Shown here one piece after another: positions 19,245 through 64,000 of a DNA stretch of 64,000 nucleotides (within the stretch, counting starts at the first letter, position 1; every line of letters begins with the position of its first letter). The stretch is from positions 9,001-73,000 of the forward strand of contig CAMBUD010000004.1 in the NCBI GenBank assembly GCA_945871035.1, given 5' to 3'. This DNA is from Planctomicrobium piriforme. GTDB taxonomy: Bacteria > Planctomycetota > Planctomycetia > Pirellulales > UBA1268. Position numbers and translations under genes: made by a program. The notes below the pieces were generated by a model. That model was not told the origin of the DNA. It was given only the letters and a program-made list of their open reading frames with translations, and did no database searches.

Positions 19245-20306
19245 TCACTGTTCCTCGAGCCCATGTTCGAGCAGCTTTTTACGCAGCGTATTGCGATTGA
19301 TGCCGAGACGAACGGCGGCCTTCAGTTGCACGCCATTGCAGGCGGCAAGCATCTGTGAAATAAGTTCGCGTTCGACACGGCTGACAATGCGTTCAAATAA
19401 GTTGTCATCTGCCGGATCACAGGTCGTCATACCCTGCTCGACTAAGTCGCGGGCCAAGCTGTCGAGATCGCCGCCGCGGCCTGGCATGGAGACAGTCGCC
19501 TTGTGGCCACTGATAGTCGCCGGCAGTAAGTCGAGCGTAATCTCATCGCTCGTGGCCATGACAACGCAACGCTCGACAACGTTTTGCAACTCGCGCACGT
19601 TTCCCGGCCAATGGTATTTGAGCAACGACTCCAACGAGTCTTTCTGAATGTGGACAACATAGCGGTCGTTCTCTTCGTTGTAGTATTCAAGAAAATGGCT
19701 GAGGAGTAGAGGAATATCTTCGCGTCGGGCGCGCAAGGGAGGCAAATAAATCGGCACGACATTGAGCCGGTAGTAAAGATCCTCGCGAAAGTTTTCTTTT
19801 GCCACTTCGTCGAGAAGTTCGCGGTTGCTAGCTGCAATCACCCGGGTGTCGACGCTGATTGTTTCGGTGTCGCCTACCCGCTCAAACTCACGTTCCTGAA
19901 GCACTCGCAATAATTTCACTTGCAGTTGCGGCGTCGTGGAATTGATTTCATCCAAAAAGATCGTGCCGGTGTGGGCTGCCTCAAAGCGACCGGTGCGATT
20001 GGCGACTGCGCCGGTGAACGCCCCGCGTACATGGCCAAAAAGTTCGCTTTCTAAGAGGCTCTCAGAAAGAGCCCCGCAGTTCACGCGTACAAATGGGCCG
20101 CTGCTGCGCGACGAGAGTTGATGAATGGCCTTGGCAACGAGCTCCTTGCCCGTGCCCGTTTCTCCGATCAGGAGCACCGAGGCGTTGGATGCGGCCACGC
20201 GTCGCGTCATGGCGTAGACGCCCATCATCGCTGGACCCGAACCGATCAGGCCTTGAATGGGCGATGCGGTCTGATCGTCACCGAATTGGGCGTGAGTGCG
20301 GAGCAT
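19245..20306 (-). CDS. Sigma-54-dependent transcriptional activator (AAA+ EBP with Fis-type HTH) lacking an N-terminal sensory domain
   Basis: Walker A 'GETGTGKE', 'ESELFGH', sigma-54 contact loop 'GAFTGA', Walker B 'GTIFLDEI', 'RVIAASN', '[10 protein letters not shown]', C-terminal HTH '[22 protein letters not shown]'. Only ~20 aa precede 'LIGSGPAM'. Confidence 0.9.
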
Positions 20307-22686
20307 CAGCGGTGCTGGGGGTAAGTTGTGTACGCGGCGTTTCGAGCACGTCCAAAATGGCGCCGATCACTTCGCGGCTTTCCCGATTGGTGGCTCGATT
20401 GTACCGCGTGTAAGTGGCCAGCAGCGGCCCACTTTCGAGCAGGACGCCAAAATGCTGCACGCTGGTGCGAAAGGCTGTCAGAGCAATTGTTTTGCGGTCG
20501 AGCGACAGATCGCTCCGGTCCAACTCTGCCACGATTGCTTGCTGCGCTGCGCCACTGCCGAGCGTTGAGAGCAGCGCAATTGCTGGGGCAAACAGCTCTT
20601 CTTGGGTGAGCGCGAGCGTGGCGATGGGTGTGGCTGCTGACAGATCCCATCCCCGGCGGGACAATTTATTGAGGAGCCAGAGCGACTTTCTGGCTCGTTC
20701 GAGGCGGGCCATCAAACAGGTTTGACGCATGGCCGGCACAACGGCTTGGGGGCCGGCTACCCGCAATAAAGCATCGGGGAAACGGGCCTTTGCAAGCACC
20801 GCACCGGTTTGCGGATGGCGTGTGGGTTGGAAAAAGCTATCGAGTCGATCAACGATCTCCACAGCTGGTCGTTCCGAAAACTTCATGATTTGTCGCGTTA
20901 AGAACGCCCCATTCTGATCGTCGTCCAGTGGATCCACCACGAGCATCACCGGCGGAATGTCGCCCGCCGGTTGCCGGCGAAGCAACTGCACGGTTTCATA
21001 TGCCGTGGGGGTGGTGATGCGCGCTGACAGCAGCACAAGCACGGTATCGCTGCTTTGGCGTGCCGCAAAAATAGCGTCACGACCAGTCGAGACACGCACC
21101 GTTTGGTAGCCAAACCGAGACACTCCCGTTGCCAGCAGTTGCGCAATCGCCGGATCGGAATGTGCCACAACAGCCCGGTCGATACCAGTGGCGGTGGCGG
21201 CAGATAAGAGCGTTAAAACAACGCGACTGGTCCCTGGATAAGACGCATCACCGGCAGCCAGAACCAGTGCCCGCGCTGCCTCAAATTGCAGCCCGCTATC
21301 GGGCTGATCCAAAGCCCGCACCAAAGCCTTGCGAACGACAGGGGGCAGCGGTGCGGTCTGGTCGGTGCCGGTCGCAGCCGTTTGCCCCAGCGCGCGTGCC
21401 GCGGCGGCAGCCGCTTGAACCATGCCGCGGGCCACGGCCATATCGAGCACATCGGCTACGGTTTCAACATCAAAACCGACGGGGCCTGTCAGCACGTCTC
21501 GCAGCTGTGCAGGCTTGAGCTGTTCCAGTGCCGTCAGCGGATTGGGGGTCAGCGTGAGCGTTGCTTCTAGCTGTGCCAGCAATACGAGCCTGACGGTGGC
21601 GGAATCATCAGCCTGCAAAGCGGAGAGATCGCGGGCTAAATGCAGCGCTTCCAAGGCCCGTGCGGCCGCCAGCGGCAGGGCGCGCCGCTGGATGCTTTTG
21701 GTTTTCCCATCCCAGAGAAAGCGATCCACGGTCGGTTCAATGAGCGTCCTGTCTGCCCCGTCAGCAGCGGCAAAACTGCTGCCGGATTGCAGAAGTTGAT
21801 CGGCGGATAACCGGCCGGTTGGCAGGAGCAGTTGGTCGAGGCGTTGCCGCAGACTGTCGATCGCAGCTGCCGGGGATTGGTCAGCAGCACGGCGCTTGAG
21901 CAGCGCGGTCGCCTGCTGCTGGGCCAGTGGCGGCGTACCGGCCACCAACGATGGAGCGACCAAAAAAATAGCAATATCTTGAGCCTCGCAGGCATCGAGG
22001 GCCGCAATCACGCCGCTCCAATGTGCGAGATCATCCGAGCCCAGCCACGCAAGCAGCGGTTGCCGGGCGCTGTTGCCGAGATTCTGCAGGAGCCCCACAG
22101 CGATGCTACGTGCCGGTTCTTTCACGCCCTCGTCGGTTTGTAAAAGATCGACCAGCACGGGAATCGCATCGACGCCTGCTCGGCTCAGTTGATTGGCTGC
22201 ATTCAGCCGCAGACTGCGATCACCACCACCAAGCGCAGCGCCCGCCTGAGCCAATCGCTTGGGATCGCGCCGCCGCACCTGCGCTGCCTCACGCATCGCG
22301 TCGAGCAGCGGACTCACGCGGGGATCGAGAGCTCCAAGCTCGCGATTCAATTGGTTAAGGGTTGCAGAGTTTGTGGTGTCGCCCAGATCCGCTAGCAGCC
22401 GCAAGCGGTCGTCGCCAGCCTTATCGAGTAGATTGAAAAGGAGCTTGAAATAGTCGAGCGCAGTCGCGAGAGCGTCCACCTCAGTGGCCCGGATCACGGC
22501 ATCGAGCAGTTGGGGTGCTGTGGTGCGTTGGGGCTCGGCGAGCGAATCAACAACCGCTTGAGAAAGCGAGTCGAGTGGTTGATCGACGAAAGGCTCAGCG
22601 CATGCGGGTTGGGCAGTCAAAACGATCGCCGCACAGATACAGACAACCGCTAGACATTTTTTTTGCGTGGCCCGCGTTGCCGCCAT
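20278..22686 (-). CDS. Signal-peptide protein with HEAT-like repeats and a receiver-like (pseudo-receiver) domain
   Basis: 802 aa from ATG 22686 ('[30 protein letters not shown]'). HEAT/PBS-lyase-like '[42 protein letters not shown]'. Receiver-like '[68 protein letters not shown]', with Ser where the phospho-Asp is expected. The 3-prime end overlaps the EBP start by 29 nt. Confidence 0.6.
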
Positions 22687-22763
22687 GCCTAACTGGCCAA
22701 CGGGAAAAACGGAGCATTTTTTTTTGGTTGGAACCGTCGGCAACACGCGCACGCCCCCCGGCA

Positions 22764-24194
22764 TTAGGCATCGGCAGACGAAAACAAACGCTGCTGCCAC
22801 AGAGCCATTTGGTCGGCTACACGGGCGGGTGCAGTGGAGCCGAAACTGTCCATCCGCTCAACCGCCCTGAATGCCCCAAGTGCACTGCGCAGGGTGCCGT
22901 CCCAGCCTGCGCATTCTCGCGAAAACTCCTGATCGGTAAGCTCTGTCAGCGAAACGTTTCTGGTCATTGCCTGCCGCACAAGGTGGCCGACCGTCTCGTG
23001 TGCAGTGCGTTGTGGCATGCCTTGGGCGATCAGCGCTTCCATCAAACTCGTGGCATCGAGATGACCGCGACCGAGGGTCGCCACCACGCGGGCGTGGTCA
23101 AACTTCGTGCCCGCCACCAGCGGCGCTGCCACGCCCAGCATCGCTTGCAGCGTATCGATCGAATCGAAGATCGATTCCTTGTCCTCCTGCAGATCGCGGT
23201 TGTAGGCGGTCGGCAACCCTTTGAGCAGCACCAGCAGCGACTGCACGTTGCCGATCATGCGGGCCGATTTGCCACGTATCAACTCCAGCACATCCGGATT
23301 GATTTTCTGCGGCATGATCGAGCTGCCGGTGCAGAAGCCCTCGGGCAGCTGCAAAAACCCAAACTCTTCTGTGCTCCAGAGAATCCATTCCTCGGCCCAC
23401 TGCGAGAGGTGTACCGCAGCGAGCGACAAGACAAACGCCAGTTCGCAAACGAAGTCGCGGTCGCTTGCCGCATCGAGGCTATTCGCCGCAACAGCAGTGA
23501 AACCGAGTGCATGTTTCACATGCTCACGATCGATTGGCAGACTGGTTCCAGCCAACGCACCAGAACCGAGCGGGAGCACGTTGGTACGGCCTCGGCAATC
23601 GGCCAACCGTTCACGATCGCGGGCAAACTTCTCGCACCATGACAGCAGTTGGTGTGATGCCAGCACCGGTTGCGCGCGTCTCAGATGCGTGTAGCCGGGG
23701 ATCACGAGCCCCTGTTCACGCATTGCAAAACCGAGGAAGGAGCGTTGCAGTTCTAAAAGCCCGCCATCGATGCGATCCATTGCGTGCCGGCAATAGAGCC
23801 TGAGATCAGTGGCAACCTGATCGTTGCGGCTGCGCGCTGTATGCAACTTGCGACCGATGTCGCCGAGTTTTGTTGTCAGTGCCGATTCGATGTGAAGGTG
23901 GATGTCTTCCTTGGCAGCCGTAAACTCGAAGCGACCAGCAGTGATCTCGCCGCGAATCTCTTCGAGGCCATCGACAATGGCAGTGGCTTCCTCAGCCGTG
24001 ATGATTTCACAGGCGGCCAGCATTCTTGCGTGAGCAATGGAACCGTCGATGTCGTGATCGGCTAGACGCTTGTCAAACGACACGCTTTCCGAGAACGACT
24101 CGACGCGTTTGTCGGTCGGCTCACGAAAGACACCGCCCCATACTTTTTGCGGCCCATTGGCCGACGCCTGCTGTGAATCGTTCGACTGTGGCAC
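22764..24194 (-). CDS. argH: Argininosuccinate lyase
   Basis: 'VWGGVFREPTDKRVESFSESVSFDKRLADHDIDGSIAHARML', 'HTARSRNDQVATD', 'PGYTHLRRAQP', fumarate-lyase signature 'GSSIMPQKINPD'. Confidence 0.93.
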   Translation of the reverse strand: MPQSNDSQQASANGPQKVWGGVFREPTDKRVESFSESVSFDKRLADHDIDGSIAHARMLAACEIITAEEATAIVDGLEEIRGEITAGRFEFTAAKEDIHLHIESALTTKLGDIGRKLHTARSRNDQVATDLRLYCRHAMDRIDGGLLELQRSFLGFAMREQGLVIPGYTHLRRAQPVLASHQLLSWCEKFARDRERLADCRGRTNVLPLGSGALAGTSLPIDREHVKHALGFTAVAANSLDAASDRDFVCELAFVLSLAAVHLSQWAEEWILWSTEEFGFLQLPEGFCTGSSIMPQKINPDVLELIRGKSARMIGNVQSLLVLLKGLPTAYNRDLQEDKESIFDSIDTLQAMLGVAAPLVAGTKFDHARVVATLGRGHLDATSLMEALIAQGMPQRTAHETVGHLVRQAMTRNVSLTELTDQEFSRECAGWDGTLRSALGAFRAVERMDSFGSTAPARVADQMALWQQRLFSSADA

Positions 24195-44136: not shown

Positions 44137-44520
44137 TGTAACAGGAGCAGCAAAGGAGCTTGAGATGCTTGAAATGACAAAAACAGACGTTTTTTACCGG
44201 CAGAGACCGTATAAATGGCCTTCCAAAGTCCGACCAACAGAATAGCATCTATCTTTCCGAATATCCCTAAATTAACCTTTTGTCTCAGGGCCTCTTTGCC
44301 GGTAATCGCCGGTAAGGAATGCCAGTAGCCCGTAATCGCTTTTCAAAAACGTCCAGCCCGAGCAGTAAAAAATACCCACCGACCCTCCAGTTTGCCTACC
44401 CAGTCGCGCATACGAATCATTAGCCATTCTATGAATTGCCCCTTGTGCGCTCCGCGTTACGTGCGTCTGCCAATGCCTTTGGACGCCTTAGAAAAAAATC
44501 GGATAGGGACGATCTTGTGT

Positions 44521-44537
44521 TGGCACGAAACGTGCAA
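44521..44537 (+). promoter_or_regulatory. Sigma-54 (-24/-12) promoter candidate facing cphA
   Basis: TGGCACGAAACGTGCAA versus consensus TGGCACG-N4-TTGCW. The GG and GC dinucleotides are at the canonical spacing, with a single mismatch (G for the first T of TTGC). It lies in a ~1 kb non-coding region. Confidence 0.5.
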
Positions 44538-45175
44538 GACTTTTATTTTGTCTGCCAGCGATTCGCAATCCCAAAAAGAAAGCGTAAGATTTGAATCGTG
44601 TTCTGCGAAGCGTTCGGTGCACGGGATCGACTCTTCGCAAGAGCAAGAGAATGAGAATGAGCAAGCGATCGCCATGGCCCCGAGGGCAGGCAGTCGATTG
44701 TTGAGTCGGTGTTTGATTGGTGACGGTGATGCAGCAGCGATGATTGGTTGGATTCATGGTGCCGCGAGAAACGCGCACCGCAAGCGAACGTGCGTCCGCG
44801 TGGCGTGCGGCGGTGCAAAGCGATCTTTCGGTGAGGGAAATTATTCGTCCCATGGCCCACTTGGCCGGTTTCTTGTCAGTAGGGATTCGTTCCCCCGCGT
44901 TGTGCTTTTGCCTGCCTGCAAAGGTCTTCCTTGCCAGAGGCATTTCCCCCGCAGCTCCCGACTGCTGGCCGCCCTGACGCCCCTACAGCTCAGCGTTGGT
45001 CGGTTGTCGATTTCTATAAAAATGGCTTCTCGGGCGACGCGCCCGGTCGGCCAGCCTGCGATTGGTGCAATCTTCCGCAAACAGTCCACCGGAATGTCCG
45101 CTGGCTGGAAGAGATGCACCCCACCAAAACCCACGCCCGCGTCTGCGTTTGGGTAAGAGAGTACGTTTTCCTTCC

Positions 45176-48100
45176 ATGGAGATTCAAACGCTCAAGGTTC
45201 TTCGCGGTCCCAACCAGTGGGCTTCGTTTCCGGTTCTTGAGGCGTGGGTAGACCTCGGTCGCCTCGAGGATTACCCCTCAGACACGATTCCCGGTTTCAA
45301 TGATCGGCTCATAGAATGGCTGCCGAGCCTCATCGAGCACCGCTGTTCAATCGGTGAGCGTGGCGGTTTCTTGCAACGTCTCCGCACCGGCACGTGGATG
45401 GGACACATCCTCGAGCACGTCACCCTTGAGTTGCAATCCATCGCCGGTCAGCCAGTCAGCTTTGGCAAAGCCCGGGAAACAGCAACACGCGGCGTCTACA
45501 AGGTAGTGATTCAGTTTAAAGAAGAATCGTTTGCCATCGAATGCCTCCACACAGCGCAGCGCTTGCTGATGGCCGCCATAGCCGGTGAAACGTTCGACGT
45601 GGCTTGCGAGATCAAGCGATTAAAAAAGGTGCTGCTCGACGTGCAACTGGGCCCGAGTACGCGATCGATTGTTGAAGCTGCAGCGGCGCGGGGTATTCCA
45701 ACGCGACGGCTCAACGATGGGTCGTTGGTTCGGCTGGGGCATGGAGCCAAACAGCGACGCATCATCGCTGCCGAAACCGACCGCACCGGCGCGGTCGCTG
45801 AATCGATTGCGCAGGACAAAGAACTCACGCGCACGCTCCTCCTCGAGGCCGGTATTCCGGTGTCCGAGGGGCGGCCGGTTGTGGATGCAGCCGATGCATG
45901 GTTGGCGGCTGAGGAAATCGGTGTGCCAGTTGTGGTCAAGCCCCGCTACGGCAATCAAGGGCGGGGCGTATCGGTTAGCCTTTTCACCCGCGCTGAGGTG
46001 GAAAAGGCTTGGCACGTTGCCCGTGAACAGGATTCAGCGGTTGTTGTCGAACGGTTTGTAAGCGGGAGCGATTATCGGCTGCTGGTTGTGGGCGGTGCGG
46101 TTGTGGCTGTGGCTCGGCGGCATCCCCCCACGGTCATGGGCACCGGTCAATTAACAGTGCAGCAACTCGTCGACCGCATCAATGAGGATCCGCGCCGCTG
46201 TGGCGACCATGCCGGGGCGTTGAGCCCGGTTGTCATCGATGAAGTGGCCTTAGCCGTTCTGGCTGAACAGGGCTTGGCATTGGAGAGCATTCCCGCGGCA
46301 GAGCGTCTTGTTTTTCTGCGTCAAAACGCCAATTTGAGCACCGGAGGGAGTGCCGAGGATGTCACCGACACCGTGCACCCAGCCGTTGCATCGCTGGCGG
46401 TTGAGGCGGCACGCATTATCGGATTGGATGTGGCTGGCGTTGATGTTGTCGCACTCGATATCACCCAACCGCTCGAGTTGCAACGCGGCGTTGTGATTGA
46501 AGTCAATGCTGGGCCAGGTCTGCGCATGCACATCGAGCCGACAGTGGGGACTCCACGTGCCGTTGGTGCCGCAATCGTCGACACGCTTTTCGCGCCCGGA
46601 GAAGACGGCCGCATTCCGGTCGCCGCCGTGACGGGTACCAATGGCAAGACGACCGTGGTGCGGCTGTTGGCCCATTTGGCCGCAGCGGGTGGCGCAACCG
46701 TTGGCACCACCTGCACCGAAGGGATTTGGGTGGGCAACCGACAGATCGACAGCGGCGACTGCAGCGGCCCCGCAAGCGCACGTCGCGTGCTTGCCAATCC
46801 ATTGGTGACAACAGCGGTTCTGGAAACGGCACGCGGTGGCATTCTTCGTGAGGGTTGTGGATTTGATCACTGTGATGTGGCGGTGGTGACAAATATTTCC
46901 TCAGGCGATCACTTAGGCCTCAACGAAATTGATACCCCCGAGCAATTGGCATGGGTCAAGGGGGCGATCGTCACGGCTGTGCAGACGAAAGGATCAGCCG
47001 TGCTCAATGCAGCCGATCCGCTCGTTGTTGCCATGAAACAATGGTGCAAGGGACAAGTTGTGTACTTCGCCTTAGATCCCAACAACCCAGTCCTCGTTGC
47101 GCACCTTGCTCAGGGAGGGCTGACGGCCACGGTGCGGGATGGTTGGATCGTACTCTGCGACGGTCCACGCGAAACCCGACTGGCGAATCTCGATCGCGTG
47201 CCACTTGTGCACCGCGGCATGATCGGCTTCCAAGTGGAAAACGTACTGGCGAGTGCCGCTGCGGCATGGTGCCTCGGAGTGCCACTGGAACTGGTGCGAT
47301 TGGGTTTGGAAAGTTTTTCATCTGGCTTAGCCGGTTCACCAGGGCGTTTCAATCTGCTCGATCTGGAAGGAACGTCGATTGTGGTGGACTACGGTCACAA
47401 CATCCCGGCACTCGAGCAAATTTGCGGAGCGATCCAGAAGATGTCACACGGCCGTCGCACTGCCGTTTATTCGGCCGCTGGTGACCGTCGCGACGAGGAT
47501 CTGATTGCCCAAGGCCGCTTGCTCGGGGCGACTTTTGATCGGGTCGTGATTTATGAAGATGCCTATGTTCGCGGTCGGCAACCGGGAGAAATCACCCGGA
47601 TGATCTCCGAGGGCATTGCGCAGGCATCGCGGCCGGGGCATCCCACCACGATCGAAGCGGGCGGCAACTGGTCTGACTCGGCAGCGCACGTACTCGATGC
47701 CGTGCAGCCCGGCGAGCTTGTGCTGCTGCAAGCTGATTCTGTGGAGCAGTCCATCCCCTGGTTGGAAGCGCACTACGGTAAGCGACTGCGGGAAACAAAC
47801 CTCGAGGAGATGGCGGGGCTGTCGGCGTACAGCCAACAGGAACGCGTGCCCGGACAGAGCGAACCAGTTGAGATCAAGAACGGCCATCTTGGCCGTGCCG
47901 CCTGTGCCGCTCGAGACTTGGCTGCCGGTGAAACGATCCTGAAGGCCTGGGGGCCGCAGTTGCCCAAACGCACGCGACACTCGATGCAGGTGGATGTTGA
48001 CACCCACATCCTGCCCGATGGAGTGGTCGTGCTTCTCAACCACTCCTGCACGCCTAATTGTGGTCTCATTATTCGCTCGGGCACCAAGGAGATCGAGGCC

Positions 48101-48331
48101 AGATCGCTGCGACCGATTCGGGCCGGTGAAGAACTCACATTCGACTACGAGACTTTTGAATACGAGATCGAGTACCTCAAAGGTCCGTGTCTGTGCGGAT
48201 CGGCTCAGTGCCGAGGACACCTTCGCGGCTACAAATATTTACCGGCAGATGTCAAGGCACGCTACGGCGAGTTCATTGCCGAATATCTGCGGGCACTGGA
48301 AGGCGAGATAACGGTTCCCATCGGGGCCTAG
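45176..48331 (+). CDS. cphA: Cyanophycin synthetase fused in frame to a C-terminal SET-domain methyltransferase module
   Basis: N-domain 'MEIQTLKVLRGPNQWASFPVLEAWVDLG', ATP-grasp 'VVVKPRYGNQGRGVSV', Mur-ligase-type P-loop 'VTGTNGKTT'. Residues ~898-1051 carry 'NHSCTPNC', 'ELTFDY' and 'CLCGSAQCRGH' (SET/post-SET). ATG 45176 chosen; the longest ORF starts at 45062. Confidence 0.9.
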   Translation: MEIQTLKVLRGPNQWASFPVLEAWVDLGRLEDYPSDTIPGFNDRLIEWLPSLIEHRCSIGERGGFLQRLRTGTWMGHILEHVTLELQSIAGQPVSFGKARETATRGVYKVVIQFKEESFAIECLHTAQRLLMAAIAGETFDVACEIKRLKKVLLDVQLGPSTRSIVEAAAARGIPTRRLNDGSLVRLGHGAKQRRIIAAETDRTGAVAESIAQDKELTRTLLLEAGIPVSEGRPVVDAADAWLAAEEIGVPVVVKPRYGNQGRGVSVSLFTRAEVEKAWHVAREQDSAVVVERFVSGSDYRLLVVGGAVVAVARRHPPTVMGTGQLTVQQLVDRINEDPRRCGDHAGALSPVVIDEVALAVLAEQGLALESIPAAERLVFLRQNANLSTGGSAEDVTDTVHPAVASLAVEAARIIGLDVAGVDVVALDITQPLELQRGVVIEVNAGPGLRMHIEPTVGTPRAVGAAIVDTLFAPGEDGRIPVAAVTGTNGKTTVVRLLAHLAAAGGATVGTTCTEGIWVGNRQIDSGDCSGPASARRVLANPLVTTAVLETARGGILREGCGFDHCDVAVVTNISSGDHLGLNEIDTPEQLAWVKGAIVTAVQTKGSAVLNAADPLVVAMKQWCKGQVVYFALDPNNPVLVAHLAQGGLTATVRDGWIVLCDGPRETRLANLDRVPLVHRGMIGFQVENVLASAAAAWCLGVPLELVRLGLESFSSGLAGSPGRFNLLDLEGTSIVVDYGHNIPALEQICGAIQKMSHGRRTAVYSAAGDRRDEDLIAQGRLLGATFDRVVIYEDAYVRGRQPGEITRMISEGIAQASRPGHPTTIEAGGNWSDSAAHVLDAVQPGELVLLQADSVEQSIPWLEAHYGKRLRETNLEEMAGLSAYSQQERVPGQSEPVEIKNGHLGRAACAARDLAAGETILKAWGPQLPKRTRHSMQVDVDTHILPDGVVVLLNHSCTPNCGLIIRSGTKEIEARSLRPIRAGEELTFDYETFEYEIEYLKGPCLCGSAQCRGHLRGYKYLPADVKARYGEFIAEYLRALEGEITVPIGA

Positions 48332-60405: not shown

Positions 60406-60483
60406 GCTCAGAACTGGCCTAGGGCCACTCCTGACCACATGGAATACTCCGGAGGGAAAATCCCCTGCGGAGTATTTTTTTTG

Positions 60484-61734
60484 ATGCGAGTGTTTCTTTC
60501 TGCCGGCGAGCCATCGGGCGATCATCACGCAGCGCTCTTAATGCGTGCGATGAAGCAGCGGCAGCCAGACGTGGAATGCGTCGGGCTGGGTGGTCCGTGC
60601 ATGGCAGCTCAGGGCTGCCCACTGCTGGCCGATCTCACACAACTTGCTGTGATGTGGTTTGTGCGAGTGGTGCTCAACATCCATCGCTTTGTGGAGTTGG
60701 TGCGACGAGCTGAACGCAGTTTCCTCGACAACAAACCCGATGTGTGCGTGCTGGTCGACTTCCCTGGGTTTCATTGGTGGCTGGCATGGCGAGCCAAACG
60801 CCACGGCATTCCCGTCGTCTTTTATTGCCCGCCTCAGATTTGGGCGTGGGCGAGTTGGCGGATTGGTAAGCTGCGGCGGCTCGTCGACCACGTGCTCTCA
60901 GCGCTGCCTTTTGAACACGATTGGTTTGTCTCCCGTGGGGTGAGCAGTACGCTTGTTGGCCACCCATTTTTCGATGAGCTCCACGCCTACCGCCAGGGCC
61001 AGCCGCCCACGCTTACGCCGCTCGTGCTGCTGCTGCCTGGCTCGCGCAGTCAAGAGATCGAGGCGAATCTGGCATCGATGCTGCAAAGCGTCGCCGAGGT
61101 GCATGCGCATGTACCGCAGGCGAGATTTATCGTGGCGGCGTTGCATGAACGCCATGCCATTGCGGCACGTGCCAAGATCCATTCTGCCGCCGGTGTGCTC
61201 GGCAGCGCAAGCGTGCAGGTGGCCGTGGGTCGCACGCGCAGCCTGATCGGTGAGGCATGCTGTGCGATTGCCGTGAGTGGATCGGTGTCGCTTGAGCTCC
61301 TTGCCGCCCGGGTGCCTGCTGTGATCATCTACCGGATTAGCAGGTGGGGATTTATCGTGCAGAGCTGGTTTCGTCACGCCCGCTTTATCACGCTGGTCAA
61401 CCTGCTGGCAATCTGCGATCCCATCGGCCCGGTGCGGGGTGTGTGGCGGGCCCCGCGGCATGTTGCCCCGGCTGATCCTGCCGCCATCTACCCCGAATAC
61501 CTCTCGGTTCAAGATCCAGCCGCAGCCGTAGCCGAGCATGTAATCCAATGGCTTCAGCAGCCCGCTCAACGCCACCGGGTTGTCGCACGACTCGAAGCCG
61601 TGGCCGCTGCTGTGGCACAGGGCGGTTCCGCGAATCGTGCAGCCGAAGCGGTGCTGAAAATAGCCGCTGGCGTAGAGGCCAGGCAGCACCACCAGCACAA
61701 AGAGTTGTTGGTGGGGGCCACAAATGCAGCATAA
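60484..61734 (+). CDS. lpxB: Lipid-A-disaccharide synthase
   Basis: 'MRVFLSAGEPSGDHHAALLMRAMK', 'VLVDFPGFHWWLAWRAKRHGIPVVFYCPPQIWAW', 'LLPGSRSQEI', 'AIAVSGSVSLELL'. ATG 60484 chosen. Confidence 0.88.
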   Translation: MRVFLSAGEPSGDHHAALLMRAMKQRQPDVECVGLGGPCMAAQGCPLLADLTQLAVMWFVRVVLNIHRFVELVRRAERSFLDNKPDVCVLVDFPGFHWWLAWRAKRHGIPVVFYCPPQIWAWASWRIGKLRRLVDHVLSALPFEHDWFVSRGVSSTLVGHPFFDELHAYRQGQPPTLTPLVLLLPGSRSQEIEANLASMLQSVAEVHAHVPQARFIVAALHERHAIAARAKIHSAAGVLGSASVQVAVGRTRSLIGEACCAIAVSGSVSLELLAARVPAVIIYRISRWGFIVQSWFRHARFITLVNLLAICDPIGPVRGVWRAPRHVAPADPAAIYPEYLSVQDPAAAVAEHVIQWLQQPAQRHRVVARLEAVAAAVAQGGSANRAAEAVLKIAAGVEARQHHQHKELLVGATNAA

Positions 61735-61743
61735 TGTCAGCCC

Positions 61744-62514
61744 ATGTTTTTAGCAGAACCCCAACCGACGTCTGCCGATCTGCACTTTACCGTGCGGGGG
61801 ATCCCCGTCCGCGTGTCGGCTTGGTTTTGGGTGGCTGCAGCGCTGCTGGGCTGGAGCGTTTGCCAGAGCATGGCCCAAGGCGATCAACGCGAACTGCTGC
61901 GCTATCTGCTGGTGTGGGTGGGCGTGGTATTTGTGTCGCTTTTGGTTCATGAAATGGGACACGCCTTGGCCTACGCCGCATTTGGGCAATCGGCCCGCGT
62001 TGTGCTCTATCACTTTGGCGGCTTGGCTATTCCTGATTACCGGCGCGCAAGCACGTTGCGCAGGCCCATTGAGCGACTGATTGTGTCGGCAGCCGGTCCG
62101 CTGTCACAGCTGATACTGGCGGCTGCAATCGTGGTGATTTTAAAAACCAGCGGCTACCAAGTGCCATTTCCGATTGCTGCCGTCGACGAGTGGCTGGGAC
62201 TGCATGCCGGCCGACCACTCCCCTCGCCACTGAGCTTTGCACTGGTGTGGTTTGTGCTGCAGGTCAATATTTTTTGGCCCCTATTAAATCTGGCCCCGGT
62301 ACCACCGCTGGACGGCGGACAGATCGTGCGCGAGGGGCTGTTGAGTTTGGGCGTTAGCAATGCGGTGCAAATCGCGGGGATGCTCGGTGTGGCCACCGGG
62401 GCTGCTGTAAGCTACTGGGCAGTCACGCACGGTCAGCCCTATCTGGGGATCATGTTTGCCATGCTTGCCGTGACGTGCTTCCAGAGCTTGTCGGGCACCT
62501 CGTGGAATCGGTGA
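61744..62514 (+). CDS. M50-family (site-2 protease-like) membrane metalloprotease
   Basis: HExxH in a TM helix ('LLVHEMGHALAYAAFG'), second motif 'NLAPVPPLDGGQIV', multi-TM. Confidence 0.8.
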   Translation: MFLAEPQPTSADLHFTVRGIPVRVSAWFWVAAALLGWSVCQSMAQGDQRELLRYLLVWVGVVFVSLLVHEMGHALAYAAFGQSARVVLYHFGGLAIPDYRRASTLRRPIERLIVSAAGPLSQLILAAAIVVILKTSGYQVPFPIAAVDEWLGLHAGRPLPSPLSFALVWFVLQVNIFWPLLNLAPVPPLDGGQIVREGLLSLGVSNAVQIAGMLGVATGAAVSYWAVTHGQPYLGIMFAMLAVTCFQSLSGTSWNR

Positions 62515-62565
62515 GCGAGACCGAGCCAGCCGCCGGCCAGACCACGGGTTGAGCGGCAGCCAGTT

Positions 62566-62604
62566 GGGCAGAGAACTCGGGCAGAAAACTTGGGCAGAAA
62601 ACTC
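62566..62604. repeat. 13-nt tandem repeat x3 (GGGCAGARAACTY)
   Basis: Read directly, in the intergenic region downstream of the M50 gene. Confidence 0.9.
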
Positions 62605-62655
62605 GGCCTTGCCCGTTTTTACAGCCAGAATTGCCCAAAATATCCGGTTTGCAAC

Positions 62656-62738
62656 TGGGGTGATTCGCCCCACATCGGCCTTGGGCGCTGGGGCGATTCG
62701 CCCCACATCGGCCCTGGGCGCTGGGGCGATTCGCCCCA
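62656..62738. promoter_or_regulatory. Array of three 17-bp dyads (TGGGGCGA-T-TCGCCCCA) at exact 33-bp spacing; candidate upstream activator sites
   Basis: 62656-62672 has one mismatch (TGGGGTGA). 62689-62705 and 62722-62738 are perfect palindromes. They are embedded in 33-nt tandem units and centred about 154, 187 and 220 nt upstream of the predicted sigma-54 transcription start. Confidence 0.55.
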
Positions 62739-62857
62739 GCGCTCAAACAAAACCTCCCAGACGGTTAGGCAGAAATAAAAAAGTTTCCCCCAAGAAACAC
62801 TAAAAACAAGCGTTTTTAAAGGTTTTAGGGGAGTGCGAGCTGTCCCGTAGCAGACTT

Positions 62858-62874
62858 TGGCACACAGAATGCAT
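62858..62874 (+). promoter_or_regulatory. Sigma-54 (-24/-12) promoter candidate
   Basis: TGGCACACAGAATGCAT. TGGCAC is perfect and the GC of the -12 element is at the canonical spacing (ATGCA versus TTGCA). An A/T-rich tract at 62760-62830 separates it from the dyad array. Confidence 0.5.
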
Positions 62875-62949
62875 TGCTTACTGATCAGCAAGGGCTTGCC
62901 TCAACAGGCTGGCCTGGCCCGATCTGAATCATTTGTAAGGAGAGCAGTT

Positions 62950-63081
62950 GTGAAATCGTTCATGCCCAATCCGTTGTCGTCTGTTTGCCCAGTGGCCCAC
63001 CACTGGTCTTTAACGCGCATTGATGTGCTGCTGTGCATCGTGCCAATCGCCCTGTTTCTTTCTATTGTTTCGCTTGTATAG
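62950..63081 (+). CDS. Membrane micro-protein (43 codons)
   Basis: GTG 62950 lies 7 nt after a strong AAGGAG (62937-62942). Translation '(M)KSFMPNPLSSVCPVAHHWSLTRIDVLLCIVPIALFLSIVSLV' has one C-terminal TM helix. It is the 3-prime part of track ORF 62857-63081. Confidence 0.45.
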   Translation: MKSFMPNPLSSVCPVAHHWSLTRIDVLLCIVPIALFLSIVSLV

Positions 63082-63126
63082 CTCTTGATTTAAACGCCCC
63101 CCACCGTCTTTTTGGAGAACAGTGTC

Positions 63127-63597
63127 ATGGCTTCCTTTGACGAAACAAGCCTGCGAGAAGTGGTGATTGTCGATCCAGCATGCGATCGCTACGCCGATTT
63201 TGTCCAAGCAGCGCAGGCCAGTCAGATTGGCCTCCACTTTTGTTCCGATGGCCGTGCGGCCGTGCGAATGTCGCGACGCTTTCGCGCCGACATCTGGCTC
63301 GTGAATTCCGACTTACCCGATATGTCCGGCTTTGACCTCCTAGACCTACTCTCAATGCACGTTTCGCAAGGGGCGGTTGATCCCATGCGGTCGGGCACGC
63401 GGGTTTCCTTGGATCAGGTTGGCCGGGGAATGCAATCCGGCATCTTCATCGTCTCGGATGCCTATCGACTATTTGAAGAGCAGCAAGCACTTGCCTCGGG
63501 CATTGCGGGTTATCTGGTCCACCCAATCAATTTGGATGTGATTCGTGCCGCCCGTGAACCAATTGTTCCCCTGTTTGGTAGTCAACTGATTGGCTAA
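63127..63597 (+). CDS. Single-domain response-regulator receiver-like protein (atypical acceptor site)
   Basis: 'VVIVDPACDRYADFVQAAQASQIGLHFCSDGRAAVRMSRRFRADIWLVNSDLPDMSGFDLLDLL'. GGAG lies 9 nt upstream of ATG 63127. The position 4 residues before the conserved Pro is Asn rather than Asp. Confidence 0.65.
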   Translation: MASFDETSLREVVIVDPACDRYADFVQAAQASQIGLHFCSDGRAAVRMSRRFRADIWLVNSDLPDMSGFDLLDLLSMHVSQGAVDPMRSGTRVSLDQVGRGMQSGIFIVSDAYRLFEEQQALASGIAGYLVHPINLDVIRAAREPIVPLFGSQLIG

Positions 63598-63648: not shown

Positions 63649-64000
63649 ATGAAAACGCCAGAGAAAACAACAGAATCTTTGAGCGCCGCAAGCCGCAACC
63701 AACTTGACGGCCCGTGGGTTCCAAACGTTGTGGTTGTCGACCCACGATTTGATGCCTACAAATCTCTGGCTGCCAGCGCTCGCCTCGGCAAACTCAACCT
63801 CCACTTTCGCTCCAGTGGTGCTGACGCGATCAAATTGTCTCGCAAGCAACCTGTCGATGCGTGGCTGATTGCAACCGATCTGGACGACATGTCCGGTCAC
63901 GATTTGGTGGAATTATTGCGATCGTTCAACCGATCGTTCAACGCTGGCCAAGAAGTTGGCCAAGCCGATGAAGCCCAAGCCCAAGATAGTCAGCCGGTTA
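63649..64000 (+). CDS. Second receiver-like paralog (partial, runs off the right edge)
   Basis: Hand-translated from ATG 63649: 'MKTPEKTTESLSAASRNQLDGPWVPNVVVVDPRFDAYKSLAASARLGKLNLHFRSSGADAIKLSRKQPVDAWLIATDLDDMSGHDLVELL...'. Collinear with the preceding gene and open to the window end. Confidence 0.6.
   Translation, partial: MKTPEKTTESLSAASRNQLDGPWVPNVVVVDPRFDAYKSLAASARLGKLNLHFRSSGADAIKLSRKQPVDAWLIATDLDDMSGHDLVELLRSFNRSFNAGQEVGQADEAQAQDSQPV

What the first reader, a model, noticed from the sequence alone, without database searches (positions are those of the whole stretch)
62566..62874. Textbook-like sigma-54 control region: three 17-bp dyads at 33-bp phasing, an A/T-rich spacer and a -24/-12 element
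Three copies of the palindrome TGGGGCGA-T-TCGCCCCA (two perfect, one with a single mismatch) sit with centres exactly 33 bp apart, about three helical turns. An A/T-rich tract follows at 62760-62830, then TGGCACACAGAATGCA with canonical GG/GC spacing at 62858-62873. The dyads fall about 154-220 nt upstream of the predicted start. This is the classic geometry of enhancer-binding-protein upstream activator sites plus a bend site. A further 13-nt x3 tandem repeat (GGGCAGARAACTY) lies at 62566-62604. The window encodes one sigma-54 EBP with a Fis-type HTH (19245-20306) that could be the cognate binder, though that link is only inference.
Basis: partly seen in the sequence, partly recalled or inferred. 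Interest (0 to 1): 0.72.

Follow-up and report, generated by a model that had tools for sequence, protein, structure and literature searches.

The report
Conserved sigma-54 enhancer-promoter of Pirellulales
This stretch is a real, evolutionarily conserved sigma-54 promoter with three upstream activator-binding dyads; the same dyad also sits in front of PEP-CTERM surface-protein genes in related uncultured freshwater planctomycetes, so it marks a regulon that I could not find described.

Summary
The interpretation, a sigma-54 promoter with upstream activator sites, is strongly supported by comparative and transcript data.

- **Conservation.** In 76 of 84 loci (83 related Pirellulales/Planctomycetia loci plus the window) a TGGCAC-N5-NTGCA element is preceded by 2-3 dyads TGGRGCGAWTCGCYCCA. 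It lies upstream of a conserved operon: a small membrane peptide, then two atypical receiver proteins.
- **Geometry.** Dyad spacings are quantised at 22, 31-34 and 43-45 bp. The dyad-to-promoter distance has an ~11.25 bp periodicity.
- **Not dispersed.** In 1.05 Mb of related DNA, 83 of 85 dyad clusters lie beside a -24/-12 element. The dyads are therefore not REP-like.
- **Not the M50 terminator.** The element stays with the operon while the upstream gene changes.
- **Transcripts.** RNA contigs from twelve lake metatranscriptomes start at 62900-62923 or later. That is just downstream of the predicted +1 (~62884), with almost nothing upstream.
- **Regulon.** A scan ascertained by dyad pairs alone shows the same enhancer in front of PEP-CTERM protein genes. 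It is a planctomycete counterpart of the proteobacterial PrsR "PEP-CTERM box", with a different motif.

The activator is unidentified, and the window's EBP remains only a candidate. The 13-nt repeat is a strain-variable VNTR and is not conserved.

The parts
62566..62606 (+). 13-nt tandem repeat (GGGCAGARAACTY x3.2). It is a strain-variable VNTR and not a conserved part of the control region. Its last copy plus GGCCTTGCCC-GTTTTT (to ~62620) forms a weak terminator-like hairpin after the M50 gene.
   Evidence: TRF. Two versus three copies among same-species contigs and a 13-bp deletion allele in a DNA run. Absent from 83 distant loci and from the rest of the window. The fold is not better than shuffles, z=0.09.
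62655..62738 (.). 33-bp tandem repeat (2.5 copies) that carries the three dyads. This is the enhancer (UAS) array.
   Evidence: TRF score 154, 96% matches. Equivalent arrays with 31-34 bp periods occur in L009, L019, L045, L038.
62656..62672 (.). Dyad 1, TGGGGTGATTCGCCCCA. Its centre is 195 bp upstream of the first G of the -24 GG.
   Evidence: It matches the family consensus TGGRGCGAWTCGCYCCA with 1 mismatch.
62689..62705 (.). Dyad 2, TGGGGCGATTCGCCCCA. Its centre is 162 bp upstream of the GG.
62722..62738 (.). Dyad 3 (proximal), TGGGGCGATTCGCCCCA. Its centre is 129 bp upstream of the GG, inside the family's 128-133 bp distance class.
62760..62830 (.). A/T-rich spacer with A- and T-tracts, including the A5-N6-T5 word AAAAACAAGCGTTTTT (62803-62818). 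It is a presumed bend or flexibility element.
   Evidence: 63.4% A+T. In relatives A+T rises to 0.46-0.53 at -90..-30 and T4/A4 tracts peak at fixed positions. There are zero canonical IHF sites.
62858..62873 (+). Sigma-54 -24/-12 element TGGCACACAGAATGCA (GG 62859-60, GC 62871-72). The predicted +1 is ~62884.
   Evidence: The element is kept in 76 of 84 loci, with GG, GC, and the TGGCAC and TGCA cores near-invariant.
62900..62923 (+). Zone where the most upstream RNA contigs of the operon begin in lake metatranscriptomes. It is an upper bound for the transcript's 5' end.
   Evidence: Contig starts at 62900, 62903, 62906, 62917 (x3), 62919 and 62923. Depth is 10-60 downstream and ~0 upstream.
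62950..63081 (+). First gene of the operon: a 43-aa small membrane peptide. It has a GTG start, an AAGGAG Shine-Dalgarno sequence at 62937-62942, and a conserved C-terminus ..LTRxDVLLCxxPIALFLSIVSLV.
   Evidence: It is conserved at protein level with synonymous DNA changes. No Pfam or NCBIfam family matches.
63127..63597 (+). RR1: a 156-aa stand-alone atypical receiver-domain protein. The conserved Lys is replaced by His or Arg.
   Evidence: Pfam REC 29.6 bits, just below the cut-off. About 430 homologs at 56-74% identity.
63649..63999 (+). RR2: a second receiver-like protein, cut by the window end. It is 208 aa in L001.
19245..20306 (-). The only EBP in the window: AAA+ sigma-54 domain, GAFTGA motif and Fis-type HTH, with no sensor domain. 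It is a candidate binder, but the link is not shown.

Best explanation
The region 62655-62873 is an enhancer-dependent sigma-54 promoter. It drives an operon of a 43-aa membrane peptide and two atypical receiver-domain proteins.

Proposed mechanism (inferred, not shown):
- Dimers of a bacterial enhancer-binding protein bind the three TGGRGCGAWTCGCYCCA dyads. All three lie on one face of the helix, 33 bp or three turns apart.
- The bound dimers assemble into the active AAA+ ring.
- The A/T-tract-rich spacer lets the DNA loop, so the ring contacts sigma-54 holoenzyme held in a closed complex at TGGCAC-N5-ATGCA.
- ATP hydrolysis opens the promoter, and transcription starts near 62884.

The same dyad-plus-promoter cassette precedes paralogous operons and many PEP-CTERM protein genes in related Pirellulales. 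This promoter is therefore one member of a regulon tied to the PEP-CTERM/exosortase surface-protein system.

Shown here: the sequence anatomy, its conservation, the helical phasing, the exclusive association of dyads with -24/-12 elements, the regulon content, and a transcript boundary just downstream.

Inferred: binding by an EBP, its identity, looping, and sigma-54 dependence.
For: - Anatomy confirmed.
- Three distant loci with different upstream genes share the dyads, A/T tract, -24/-12 element and small ORF.
- 76 of 84 loci have the promoter plus 2-3 dyads, and the consensus is near-invariant.
- 166 dyad hits fall in 85 clusters in 1.05 Mb, and 83 clusters lie within 300 bp of a -24/-12 element. 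My estimate of the chance expectation is ~0.02.
- Dyad spacings peak at 22-23, 31-34 and 43-45 bp. The proximal-dyad-to-GG distance is periodic at ~11.25 bp, R=0.68 against a null maximum of 0.39.
- The same pattern appears in an independently ascertained set, R=0.59-0.72 against a 99.9% null of 0.40.
- A dyad-pair scan of metagenomes gave 120 loci, 96 with a strict -24/-12 element downstream. Of those, 44 have PEP-CTERM genes and 36 have the RR operon, with 7 having both.
- RNA contigs in 12 metatranscriptomes cover the operon at depth 10-60. They begin at 62900-62923 or later, with ~0 depth over the M50 3' half and the dyads.
- An EBP with GAFTGA in the window shows this genome uses sigma-54. 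Planctomycetia are reported to have sigma-54 regulons (PMC12316311).
- There is precedent for sigma-54 plus an activator motif upstream of PEP-CTERM genes in Proteobacteria (PMC1569441).
Against: - There is no direct binding, rpoN-dependence or mapped 5' end.
- RNA evidence comes from assembled contigs. Their ends are 16-39 nt downstream of the predicted +1, so a processed end or another promoter in 62874-62900 is not excluded.
- No rpoN gene lies in the window.
- The -12 region has ATGCA rather than TTGCA.
- The single -24/-12 match alone would occur by chance in 22% of shuffles.
- No EBP is linked to the dyads in 1.7 Mb of related loci, apart from two non-adjacent cases.
- No canonical IHF site is present.
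Confidence: 0.85

Rival explanations
1. The activator that binds the dyads is specifically the sensor-less EBP encoded at 19245-20306.
For: - It is the only EBP in the window and has a Fis-type HTH.
- Orthologs are 81-87% identical across more than 100 Planctomycetia protein clusters. The HTH is 96% conserved, as expected for a protein that reads an invariant site.
- One ortholog lies 6.3 kb from a dyad-bearing RR1 paralog in L074.
Against: - It lies 42 kb away.
- There are no dyads near it in the window or in five orthologous neighbourhoods. Those neighbourhoods show housekeeping synteny: argH, a ~800-aa protein, the EBP, lipA, lipB.
- Only 1 of 83 RR1 loci has it within 10 kb, which by my estimate is roughly what chance gives.
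- A different EBP is the one near the dyads in L095.
- It scores below the PrsR cut-off, 325 against 502.6 bits.
- From my own knowledge, planctomycete genomes typically hold several EBPs.
Confidence: 0.2
2. The dyads are a dispersed REP-like palindrome, or hairpins that terminate the upstream M50 gene. On this reading they are unrelated to the promoter.
For: - The array folds strongly as a single strand, -64.9 kcal/mol, z=-6.5.
- It lies downstream of the M50 stop codon.
- The dyads do occur at many loci per genome.
Against: - 83 of 85 clusters sit next to a -24/-12 element, at phased distances.
- The upstream gene differs between loci (M50, DHQS-like, acyltransferase, HEAT protein), while the element stays with the operon.
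- No T-run follows the dyads.
- Half-sites vary semi-independently. A/C and G/T combinations are common, which breaks pairing.
- RNA depth over the dyads is ~0.
- No Rfam family matches.
Confidence: 0.03
3. The dyads bind a conventional dimeric repressor or sigma-70-type activator, and the transcript starts from a non-sigma-54 promoter. On this reading the -24/-12 match is incidental.
For: - RNA contig ends cluster at 62900-62923, not at 62884.
- Some relatives carry an extra dyad 38-49 bp downstream of the GG. That is a repressor-like position.
Against: - The -24/-12 element is the most conserved feature of the region. GG, GC, TGGCAC and TGCA are invariant or nearly so in 76 loci.
- No sigma-70-like hexamers are found upstream of 62917.
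- Sites 95-200 bp upstream with helical phasing are the hallmark of enhancer-type activation.
Confidence: 0.07
4. The 33-bp and 13-nt tandem repeats are neutral slippage products (VNTRs) without function.
For: - Copy number of the 13-nt repeat varies between strains.
- The 33-bp array breaks assemblies, giving scaffold gaps in L002 and L003 and fragmented unitigs.
Against: This is true for the 13-nt repeat, which is absent from relatives. For the 33-bp units, however, the dyad core is conserved across species at 56-73% protein identity while the inter-dyad filler is not.
Confidence: 0.05

Closest known systems
Proteobacterial PEP-CTERM cis-regulatory site with the PrsR/PrsK/PrsT system (Haft et al. 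2006, PMC1569441)
   Same: An activator-binding motif, sometimes repeated, is followed by a spacer and then a sigma-54 -24/-12 element. It lies in large intergenic regions in front of PEP-CTERM protein genes, forming a multi-promoter regulon.
   Different: - The motif is different: here a 17-bp dyad TGGRGCGAWTCGCYCCA, there a 17-nt motif ending TTTACA.
- The spacer is longer: 64-286 bp from dyad centre to GG, 129 bp in the window, against ~63 nt.
- There are 2-4 phased copies.
- The lineage is Pirellulales, and Haft et al. state that only Proteobacteria share their motif.
- The regulon also includes an operon of a small peptide and two receiver-like proteins.
- The regulator is unidentified, and the window's EBP lacks a receiver domain and fails the PrsR cut-off.
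Classical NtrC-type enhancers (glnAp2; my own knowledge)
   Same: Multiple dyad-symmetric sites lie more than 100 bp upstream of a -24/-12 promoter on the same helical face. They nucleate an AAA+ oligomer that acts by DNA looping.
   Different: The site sequence is different (NtrC: TGCACC-N5-GGTGCA). The target genes are unrelated to nitrogen assimilation. There is no adjacent two-component pair.
IHF-assisted sigma-54 promoters (nifH, Pu, pspA; my own knowledge)
   Same: An A/T-rich element lies between the UAS and the promoter, in a position suited to bending.
   Different: No WATCAANNNNTTR site occurs in any of 75 spacers. Instead there are positioned T4-7 and A4-7 tracts and an A5-N4-8-T5 word. 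This points to an intrinsic bend or an unknown architectural protein.
Predicted sigma-54 regulon of Pirellula sp. strain 1 / Planctomycetia (Studholme & Dixon 2004, as cited in PMC12316311)
   Same: The -24/-12 consensus is the same and the phylum is the same. CheY-like receivers are noted among predicted sigma-54 targets.
   Different: In the paper I read (PMC12316311), a term search found no mention of PEP-CTERM or exosortase. No paper in the searchable library holds the dyad sequence.

Membership tests
Sigma-54 (-24/-12) promoter | GG and GC doublets exactly 10 nt apart within a TGGCAC-N5-TTGCW-like sequence | tested here: met
   TGGCACACAGAATGCA at 62858-62873 matches 10 of 12 specified positions of TGGCACG-N4-TTGCW.
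Sigma-54 (-24/-12) promoter | Intergenic position, correctly oriented upstream of a gene, and conserved in orthologous loci | tested here: met
   It lies 77 nt upstream of the small-ORF start. The element is kept in 76 of 84 loci while surrounding DNA diverges.
Sigma-54 (-24/-12) promoter | Transcript 5' end ~11-13 nt downstream of the GC | tested here: inconclusive
   RNA contigs start at 62900-62923 against a predicted ~62884, with ~0 depth upstream. Contig ends only bound the 5' end.
Sigma-54 (-24/-12) promoter | Organism encodes sigma-54 (rpoN), and expression depends on it | not testable with these tools
   No RpoN box is in the window. Indirect support comes from a GAFTGA EBP in the window and from reports that Planctomycetia have sigma-54.
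Bacterial enhancer (EBP upstream activator sequences) | Two or more dyad-symmetric sites ~70-250 bp upstream of the promoter | tested here: met
   Three 8-1-8 dyads have centres 129, 162 and 195 bp from the GG. The family shows 2-4 dyads.
Bacterial enhancer (EBP upstream activator sequences) | Face-of-helix phasing among the sites, and between the sites and the promoter | tested here: met
   Spacings are 22, 31-34 and 43-45 bp. Periodicity is ~11.25 bp, R=0.68 against a null maximum of 0.39, and this is replicated in a second set.
Bacterial enhancer (EBP upstream activator sequences) | Bound by an AAA+ EBP with an HTH | not testable with these tools
   There are no binding data. The window's EBP is only a candidate.
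PrsR 'PEP-CTERM box' regulon (Haft 2006) | Motif 1 (17 nt ending TTTACA), ~63 nt upstream of the sigma-54 motif | tested here: not met
   The dyad is a different sequence. The window's spacer from the end of the proximal dyad to the promoter is 119 nt.
PrsR 'PEP-CTERM box' regulon (Haft 2006) | The downstream gene encodes a PEP-CTERM protein | tested here: not met
   The window's operon encodes a small peptide and two receiver-like proteins, and no PEP-CTERM motif occurs in the window. However, 44 of 96 sister promoters with the same dyad do precede PEP-CTERM genes.
PrsR 'PEP-CTERM box' regulon (Haft 2006) | A PrsR (REC-AAA-HTH, TIGR02915) regulator is present | tested here: not met
   The window's EBP scores 325 bits against a cut-off of 502.6, and it has no REC domain. 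The rest of the genome was not available.
REP-like dispersed palindromes | Many copies at unrelated intergenic sites with no consistent partner element | tested here: not met
   83 of 85 clusters are paired with a -24/-12 element. There are no other copies in 64 kb.
Intrinsic terminator | A G+C-rich hairpin followed by a T-run, at the 3' end of a gene | tested here: not met
   The scan finds none at the dyads. No T-run follows them, and the element is independent of the upstream gene.
IHF-binding site | WATCAANNNNTTR between the UAS and the promoter | tested here: not met
   There are 0 hits in 75 spacers, against a null mean of 0.11.

The most novel reading that the evidence does not exclude
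The dyad is the operator of a planctomycete-specific circuit that controls PEP-CTERM/exosortase cargo. In this reading the sensor-less, highly conserved EBP, possibly the one at 19245-20306 together with its ~800-aa partner, is regulated in trans. The regulators would be the stand-alone, Lys-less receiver proteins RR1 and RR2 and the 43-aa membrane peptide that the same enhancer drives. That would make a split-EBP feedback loop with no described counterpart.
Probability: 0.1. Interest if true: 0.7.

Novelty: new member of a known kind. Interest (0 to 1): 0.5.

Why it matters
- **A defined operator.** It gives a precise, testable operator sequence (TGGRGCGAWTCGCYCCA), with geometry rules, for a sigma-54 regulon in an abundant and mostly uncultured freshwater group.
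- **An open point from 2006.** Haft et al. 2006 (PMC1569441) noted that PEP-CTERM genes outside Proteobacteria have large upstream regions whose regulatory motifs remained to be found. This motif addresses that for Pirellulales.
- **A functional link.** It connects a conserved operon of unknown function, a small membrane peptide plus two atypical receiver proteins, to the PEP-CTERM/exosortase surface-protein system.
- **Natural evidence for looping.** The ~11.25 bp phasing across well over a hundred natural promoters fits DNA looping at the helical repeat that has been measured in vivo (that figure is from my own knowledge).
- **Annotation.** The motif can be used to annotate regulon members in metagenome-assembled genomes.

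Tried and rejected
- **Rfam.** A scan of 62400-63200 gave only sub-threshold miRNA-like hits caused by the palindromes.
- **Sigma-70 promoters and terminators.** The scan found nothing at the element.
- **IHF.** No canonical site was found.
- **rpoN.** None is in the window.
- **EBP linkage.** tblastn of the window's EBP against 1.7 Mb of dyad-bearing loci gave only L074 (6.3 kb away) and a different EBP in L095 (2.6 kb away, not adjacent). Five EBP-ortholog neighbourhoods hold no dyads. The link therefore stays unproven.
- **Protein families.** NCBIfam and Pfam gave no family for the small ORF, for the 'QNDWQYPDPYFG' protein or for the ~150-aa secreted protein; for RR2 NCBIfam gave nothing and Pfam only a sub-threshold Response_reg hit (17.9 bits against a cut-off of 30.2).
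- **Literature.** No paper in the searchable library contains the dyad sequence.
- **Hairpin hypothesis.** Half-site covariation is only weak (odds ratio 3.3) and there are many non-pairing combinations.
- **The 13-nt repeat as a regulatory element.** Rejected, because it is not conserved and varies in copy number.
- **No DNA returned.** Two encoding-contig look-ups (P0096, P0138) returned gene tables but no DNA.

Full report
**1. The observation**

- The three dyads are at 62656-62672 (TGGGGTGATTCGCCCCA), 62689-62705 and 62722-62738 (both TGGGGCGATTCGCCCCA).
- Within 64 kb the 17-mer has 8 strand-wise matches at up to 3 mismatches, against 0.38 expected. No shuffle reaches 8.
- Tandem Repeats Finder shows the dyads are embedded in a 33-bp tandem repeat of 2.5 copies with 96% matches, at 62655-62738. 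A separate 13-nt repeat of 3.2 copies lies at 62566-62606. The exact 33-bp spacing is therefore a by-product of a tandem duplication.
- TGGCACACAGAATGCA (62858-62873, + strand) is the only match in the window to TGGCACN5WTGCW. On its own such a match appears in 22% of shuffles.
- The tract 62760-62830 is 63.4% A+T in a 41.1% A+T window, in the top 0.04% of all 71-nt windows.
- The ORF at 19245-20306(-) has Sigma54_activat, AAA_lid_14 and HTH_8 domains. It carries the only GAFTGA motif in the window.

**2. Context**

- Upstream lie lpxB (60439-61734) and an M50 peptidase gene (61744-62514).
- Next comes a 156-aa receiver-like protein, RR1 (63127-63597), then a second one, RR2, from 63649 to the window end.
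- The window comes from an uncultured freshwater planctomycete. The nearest named protein is from a 'Planctomycetaceae bacterium' MAG.

**3. Same-species contigs**

Six contigs encode an identical M50 protein.
- The 13-nt repeat varies between 2 and 3 copies.
- The 33-bp array coincides with scaffold gaps.
- Everything from the A/T tract to RR1 is nearly invariant.

These contigs are too close to be informative about selection.

**4. Distant relatives**

RR1 has about 430 homologs at 56-74% identity, all from Planctomycetia or Pirellulales.

In three loci the upstream neighbour is different: a DHQS-like gene, an acyltransferase and a HEAT protein. The same order of elements still recurs there:
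- 2-3 dyads;
- an A/T tract;
- TGGCAC-N5-NTGCA;
- a small ORF ending ..LTRxDVLLCxLPIALFLSIVSLV;
- RR1 and RR2.

A scan of one genome per species with an RR1 alignment returned 80 further loci. Across these loci plus the window:
- 76 of 84 have a -24/-12 element preceded by dyads within 90-330 bp. Most of the remaining loci are cut by contig ends.
- In those 76 loci the GG, GC and TGC bases are invariant (selection required them), and the free positions of the TGGCAC and TGCA cores are nearly invariant. The dyad consensus is TGGRGCGAWTCGCYCCA.
- Several genomes hold 2-3 paralogous copies of the cassette.

**5. Geometry**

- Dyad centre-to-centre spacings cluster at 22-23, 31-34 and 43-45 bp, which is two, three and four turns.
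- The distance from the proximal dyad centre to the GG falls into classes about 11 bp apart. The window's 129 bp lies in the 128-133 class.
- A periodogram gives R=0.68 at 11.25 bp, against a maximum of 0.39 in 2000 random sets.
- A+T content rises from ~0.3 to ~0.5 between -90 and -30 of the element.
- T4 tracts peak at fixed positions: 74% of loci have one at -25..-21. An A5-N4-8-T5 word is common, and in the window it is AAAAACAAGCGTTTTT at 62803-62818.
- No spacer has a canonical IHF site.

**6. Not dispersed, not a terminator, not an RNA**

- In 1.05 Mb of these loci there are 166 dyad hits in 85 clusters. 83 clusters lie within 300 bp of a -24/-12 element.
- The element follows the operon and not the M50 gene.
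- No T-run follows the dyads.
- The variable half-site position shows only weak symmetry: A/T 63, G/C 38, A/C 26, G/T 28. This fits two protein half-sites better than an obligate hairpin.
- Rfam finds nothing real.

**7. Transcripts**

Twelve lake metatranscriptomes hold the operon.
- Their RNA contigs cover it at word depth 10-60.
- The contigs begin at 62900, 62903, 62906, 62917 (three runs), 62919 and 62923, or further downstream.
- The M50 3' half and the dyad region have essentially no coverage.

The operon is therefore transcribed in nature from a start between the -24/-12 element and 62900, not by read-through. The predicted +1 (~62884) is 16 nt upstream of the most 5' RNA evidence. Contig ends give only a bound, not a mapped start.

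**8. Unbiased ascertainment**

I scanned JGI metagenomes for pairs of dyads only. The pattern was GCGAWTCGCYCCA-N5-28-TGGRGCGAWTCGC, with a chance expectation far below 1 by my estimate.
- 96 loci have a strict -24/-12 element within 340 bp downstream of the pair.
- Of those 96, 36 lead into the RR operon.
- 44 lead into genes whose products end in VPEP, a hydrophobic helix and an Arg-rich tail; 7 of these 44 are loci that also lead into the RR operon.
- That C-terminus is confirmed as PEP-CTERM by Pfam PF07589 and TIGR02595.
- This set shows the same quantised spacings and phasing.

The dyad is therefore the enhancer of a regulon that joins PEP-CTERM proteins with the small-peptide/RR1/RR2 operon.

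**9. Comparison with what is known**

- Haft et al. 2006 (PMC1569441) described, for Proteobacteria only, a 17-nt motif ending TTTACA, ~63 nt upstream of a sigma-54 motif, in front of PEP-CTERM genes. They proposed PrsR/PrsK/PrsT as the regulators.
- They stated that only Proteobacteria share that motif. They also said further motifs remain to be discovered, and they listed Rhodopirellula among PEP-CTERM-positive genomes.
- The present element works like that system but fails its defining features: the motif and spacer differ, and no PrsR is in the window.
- No paper in the searchable library contains the dyad.
- A 2025 survey of sigma-54 regulons reports sigma-54 in Planctomycetia and notes CheY-like receivers among targets. 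It does not mention PEP-CTERM.

**10. The EBP link**

- The window's EBP is a 353-aa protein without a sensor domain. Its orthologs are 81-87% identical across more than 100 protein clusters, and the HTH is nearly invariant.
- It sits in a conserved housekeeping neighbourhood: argH, a ~800-aa protein, the EBP, lipA, lipB. No dyads lie nearby.
- Among 203 dyad-bearing loci it occurs once within 10 kb (L074). A different EBP occurs once (L095).

The link is possible but rests on nothing specific. I put it at about 0.2.

**11. The 13-nt repeat**

- It is absent from all distant loci and from the rest of the window.
- Its copy number varies between strains.
- With the following GGCCTTGCCC-GTTTTT it makes a weak terminator-like hairpin that is no better than shuffles.

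It is best treated as a VNTR next to a possible M50 terminator, and not as part of the enhancer.

**12. Verdict**

It is a new member of a known kind: an enhancer-dependent sigma-54 promoter. Its added value is a defined operator and regulon that I could not find described. Sigma-54 dependence, the identity of the activator and the exact start site remain unproven.

Noticed in passing
window 44300-44540 (+), upstream of 45062-48331: A second sigma-54-like element, TGGCACGAAACGTGCA, lies at 44521, about 540 nt upstream of a 1089-aa ORF that I read as a cyanophycin-synthetase-like gene (not checked against any family library). Direct repeats CGGTAATCGC occur at ~44300 and ~44330. It has no TGGRGCGAWTCGCYCCA dyads, so it would need a different activator.
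   Followed up: partly
window 19245-22800 (-); L074, L210-L214: The sensor-less EBP overlaps the end of a ~800-840-aa protein that has only weak Arm and receiver-like hits. The pair is conserved within argH / X / EBP / lipA / lipB synteny across many Planctomycetia. The large protein may be the EBP's trans-acting regulator.
   Followed up: partly
L017, L023, L025, L031, L035, L073, L077, L082 and several metagenome loci: An extra dyad sits downstream of the promoter, with its centre 38-49 bp after the GG, roughly +13 to +24 of the transcript. It is absent in the window. It may be a site for autoregulation or for a second loop anchor.
   Followed up: partly
window 62950-63081 (+): A conserved 43-aa membrane-peptide gene is the first gene of the operon. 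Gene callers missed it on the six same-species contigs, but a small ORF at the corresponding position was called in all four distant loci looked up (38, 44, 51 and 41 aa).
   Followed up: yes
window 63127-63597 and 63649-63999; alignment A2: RR1 and RR2 are receiver-like proteins that score below Pfam's cut-off. In RR1 the conserved Lys is replaced by Arg (His in the window) in the motif LV(R/H)P, and a conserved ~30-aa insertion is present. They are probably not ordinary phospho-receivers.
   Followed up: partly
window 63650 and 63982; TRF rows at 63651-63674 and 63919-63942: Tandem 12-nt repeats (a multiple of three) lie inside the RR2 coding region. 12-nt insertion alleles are seen in RNA contigs of different lakes, at 63650 (X25) and 63982 (X36).
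   Followed up: no
relatives L009, L012, L014, L021, L024, L026, L072, L084 (downstream of RR2): A conserved ~95-130-aa protein with the motif QNDWQ(Y/F)PDPYFG follows RR2 in many loci. A ~140-190-aa secreted protein often sits between the small ORF and RR1. Neither has a Pfam family; NCBIfam was not run on these two. Both are absent from the window's version of the operon.
   Followed up: partly
window 62687-62742, DNA runs X1, X4, X6: DNA contigs from lake metagenomes match one dyad and then diverge into unrelated sequence, or join dyads through a different 8-11-nt filler. These are presumably other regulon promoters or array variants in the population.
   Followed up: no
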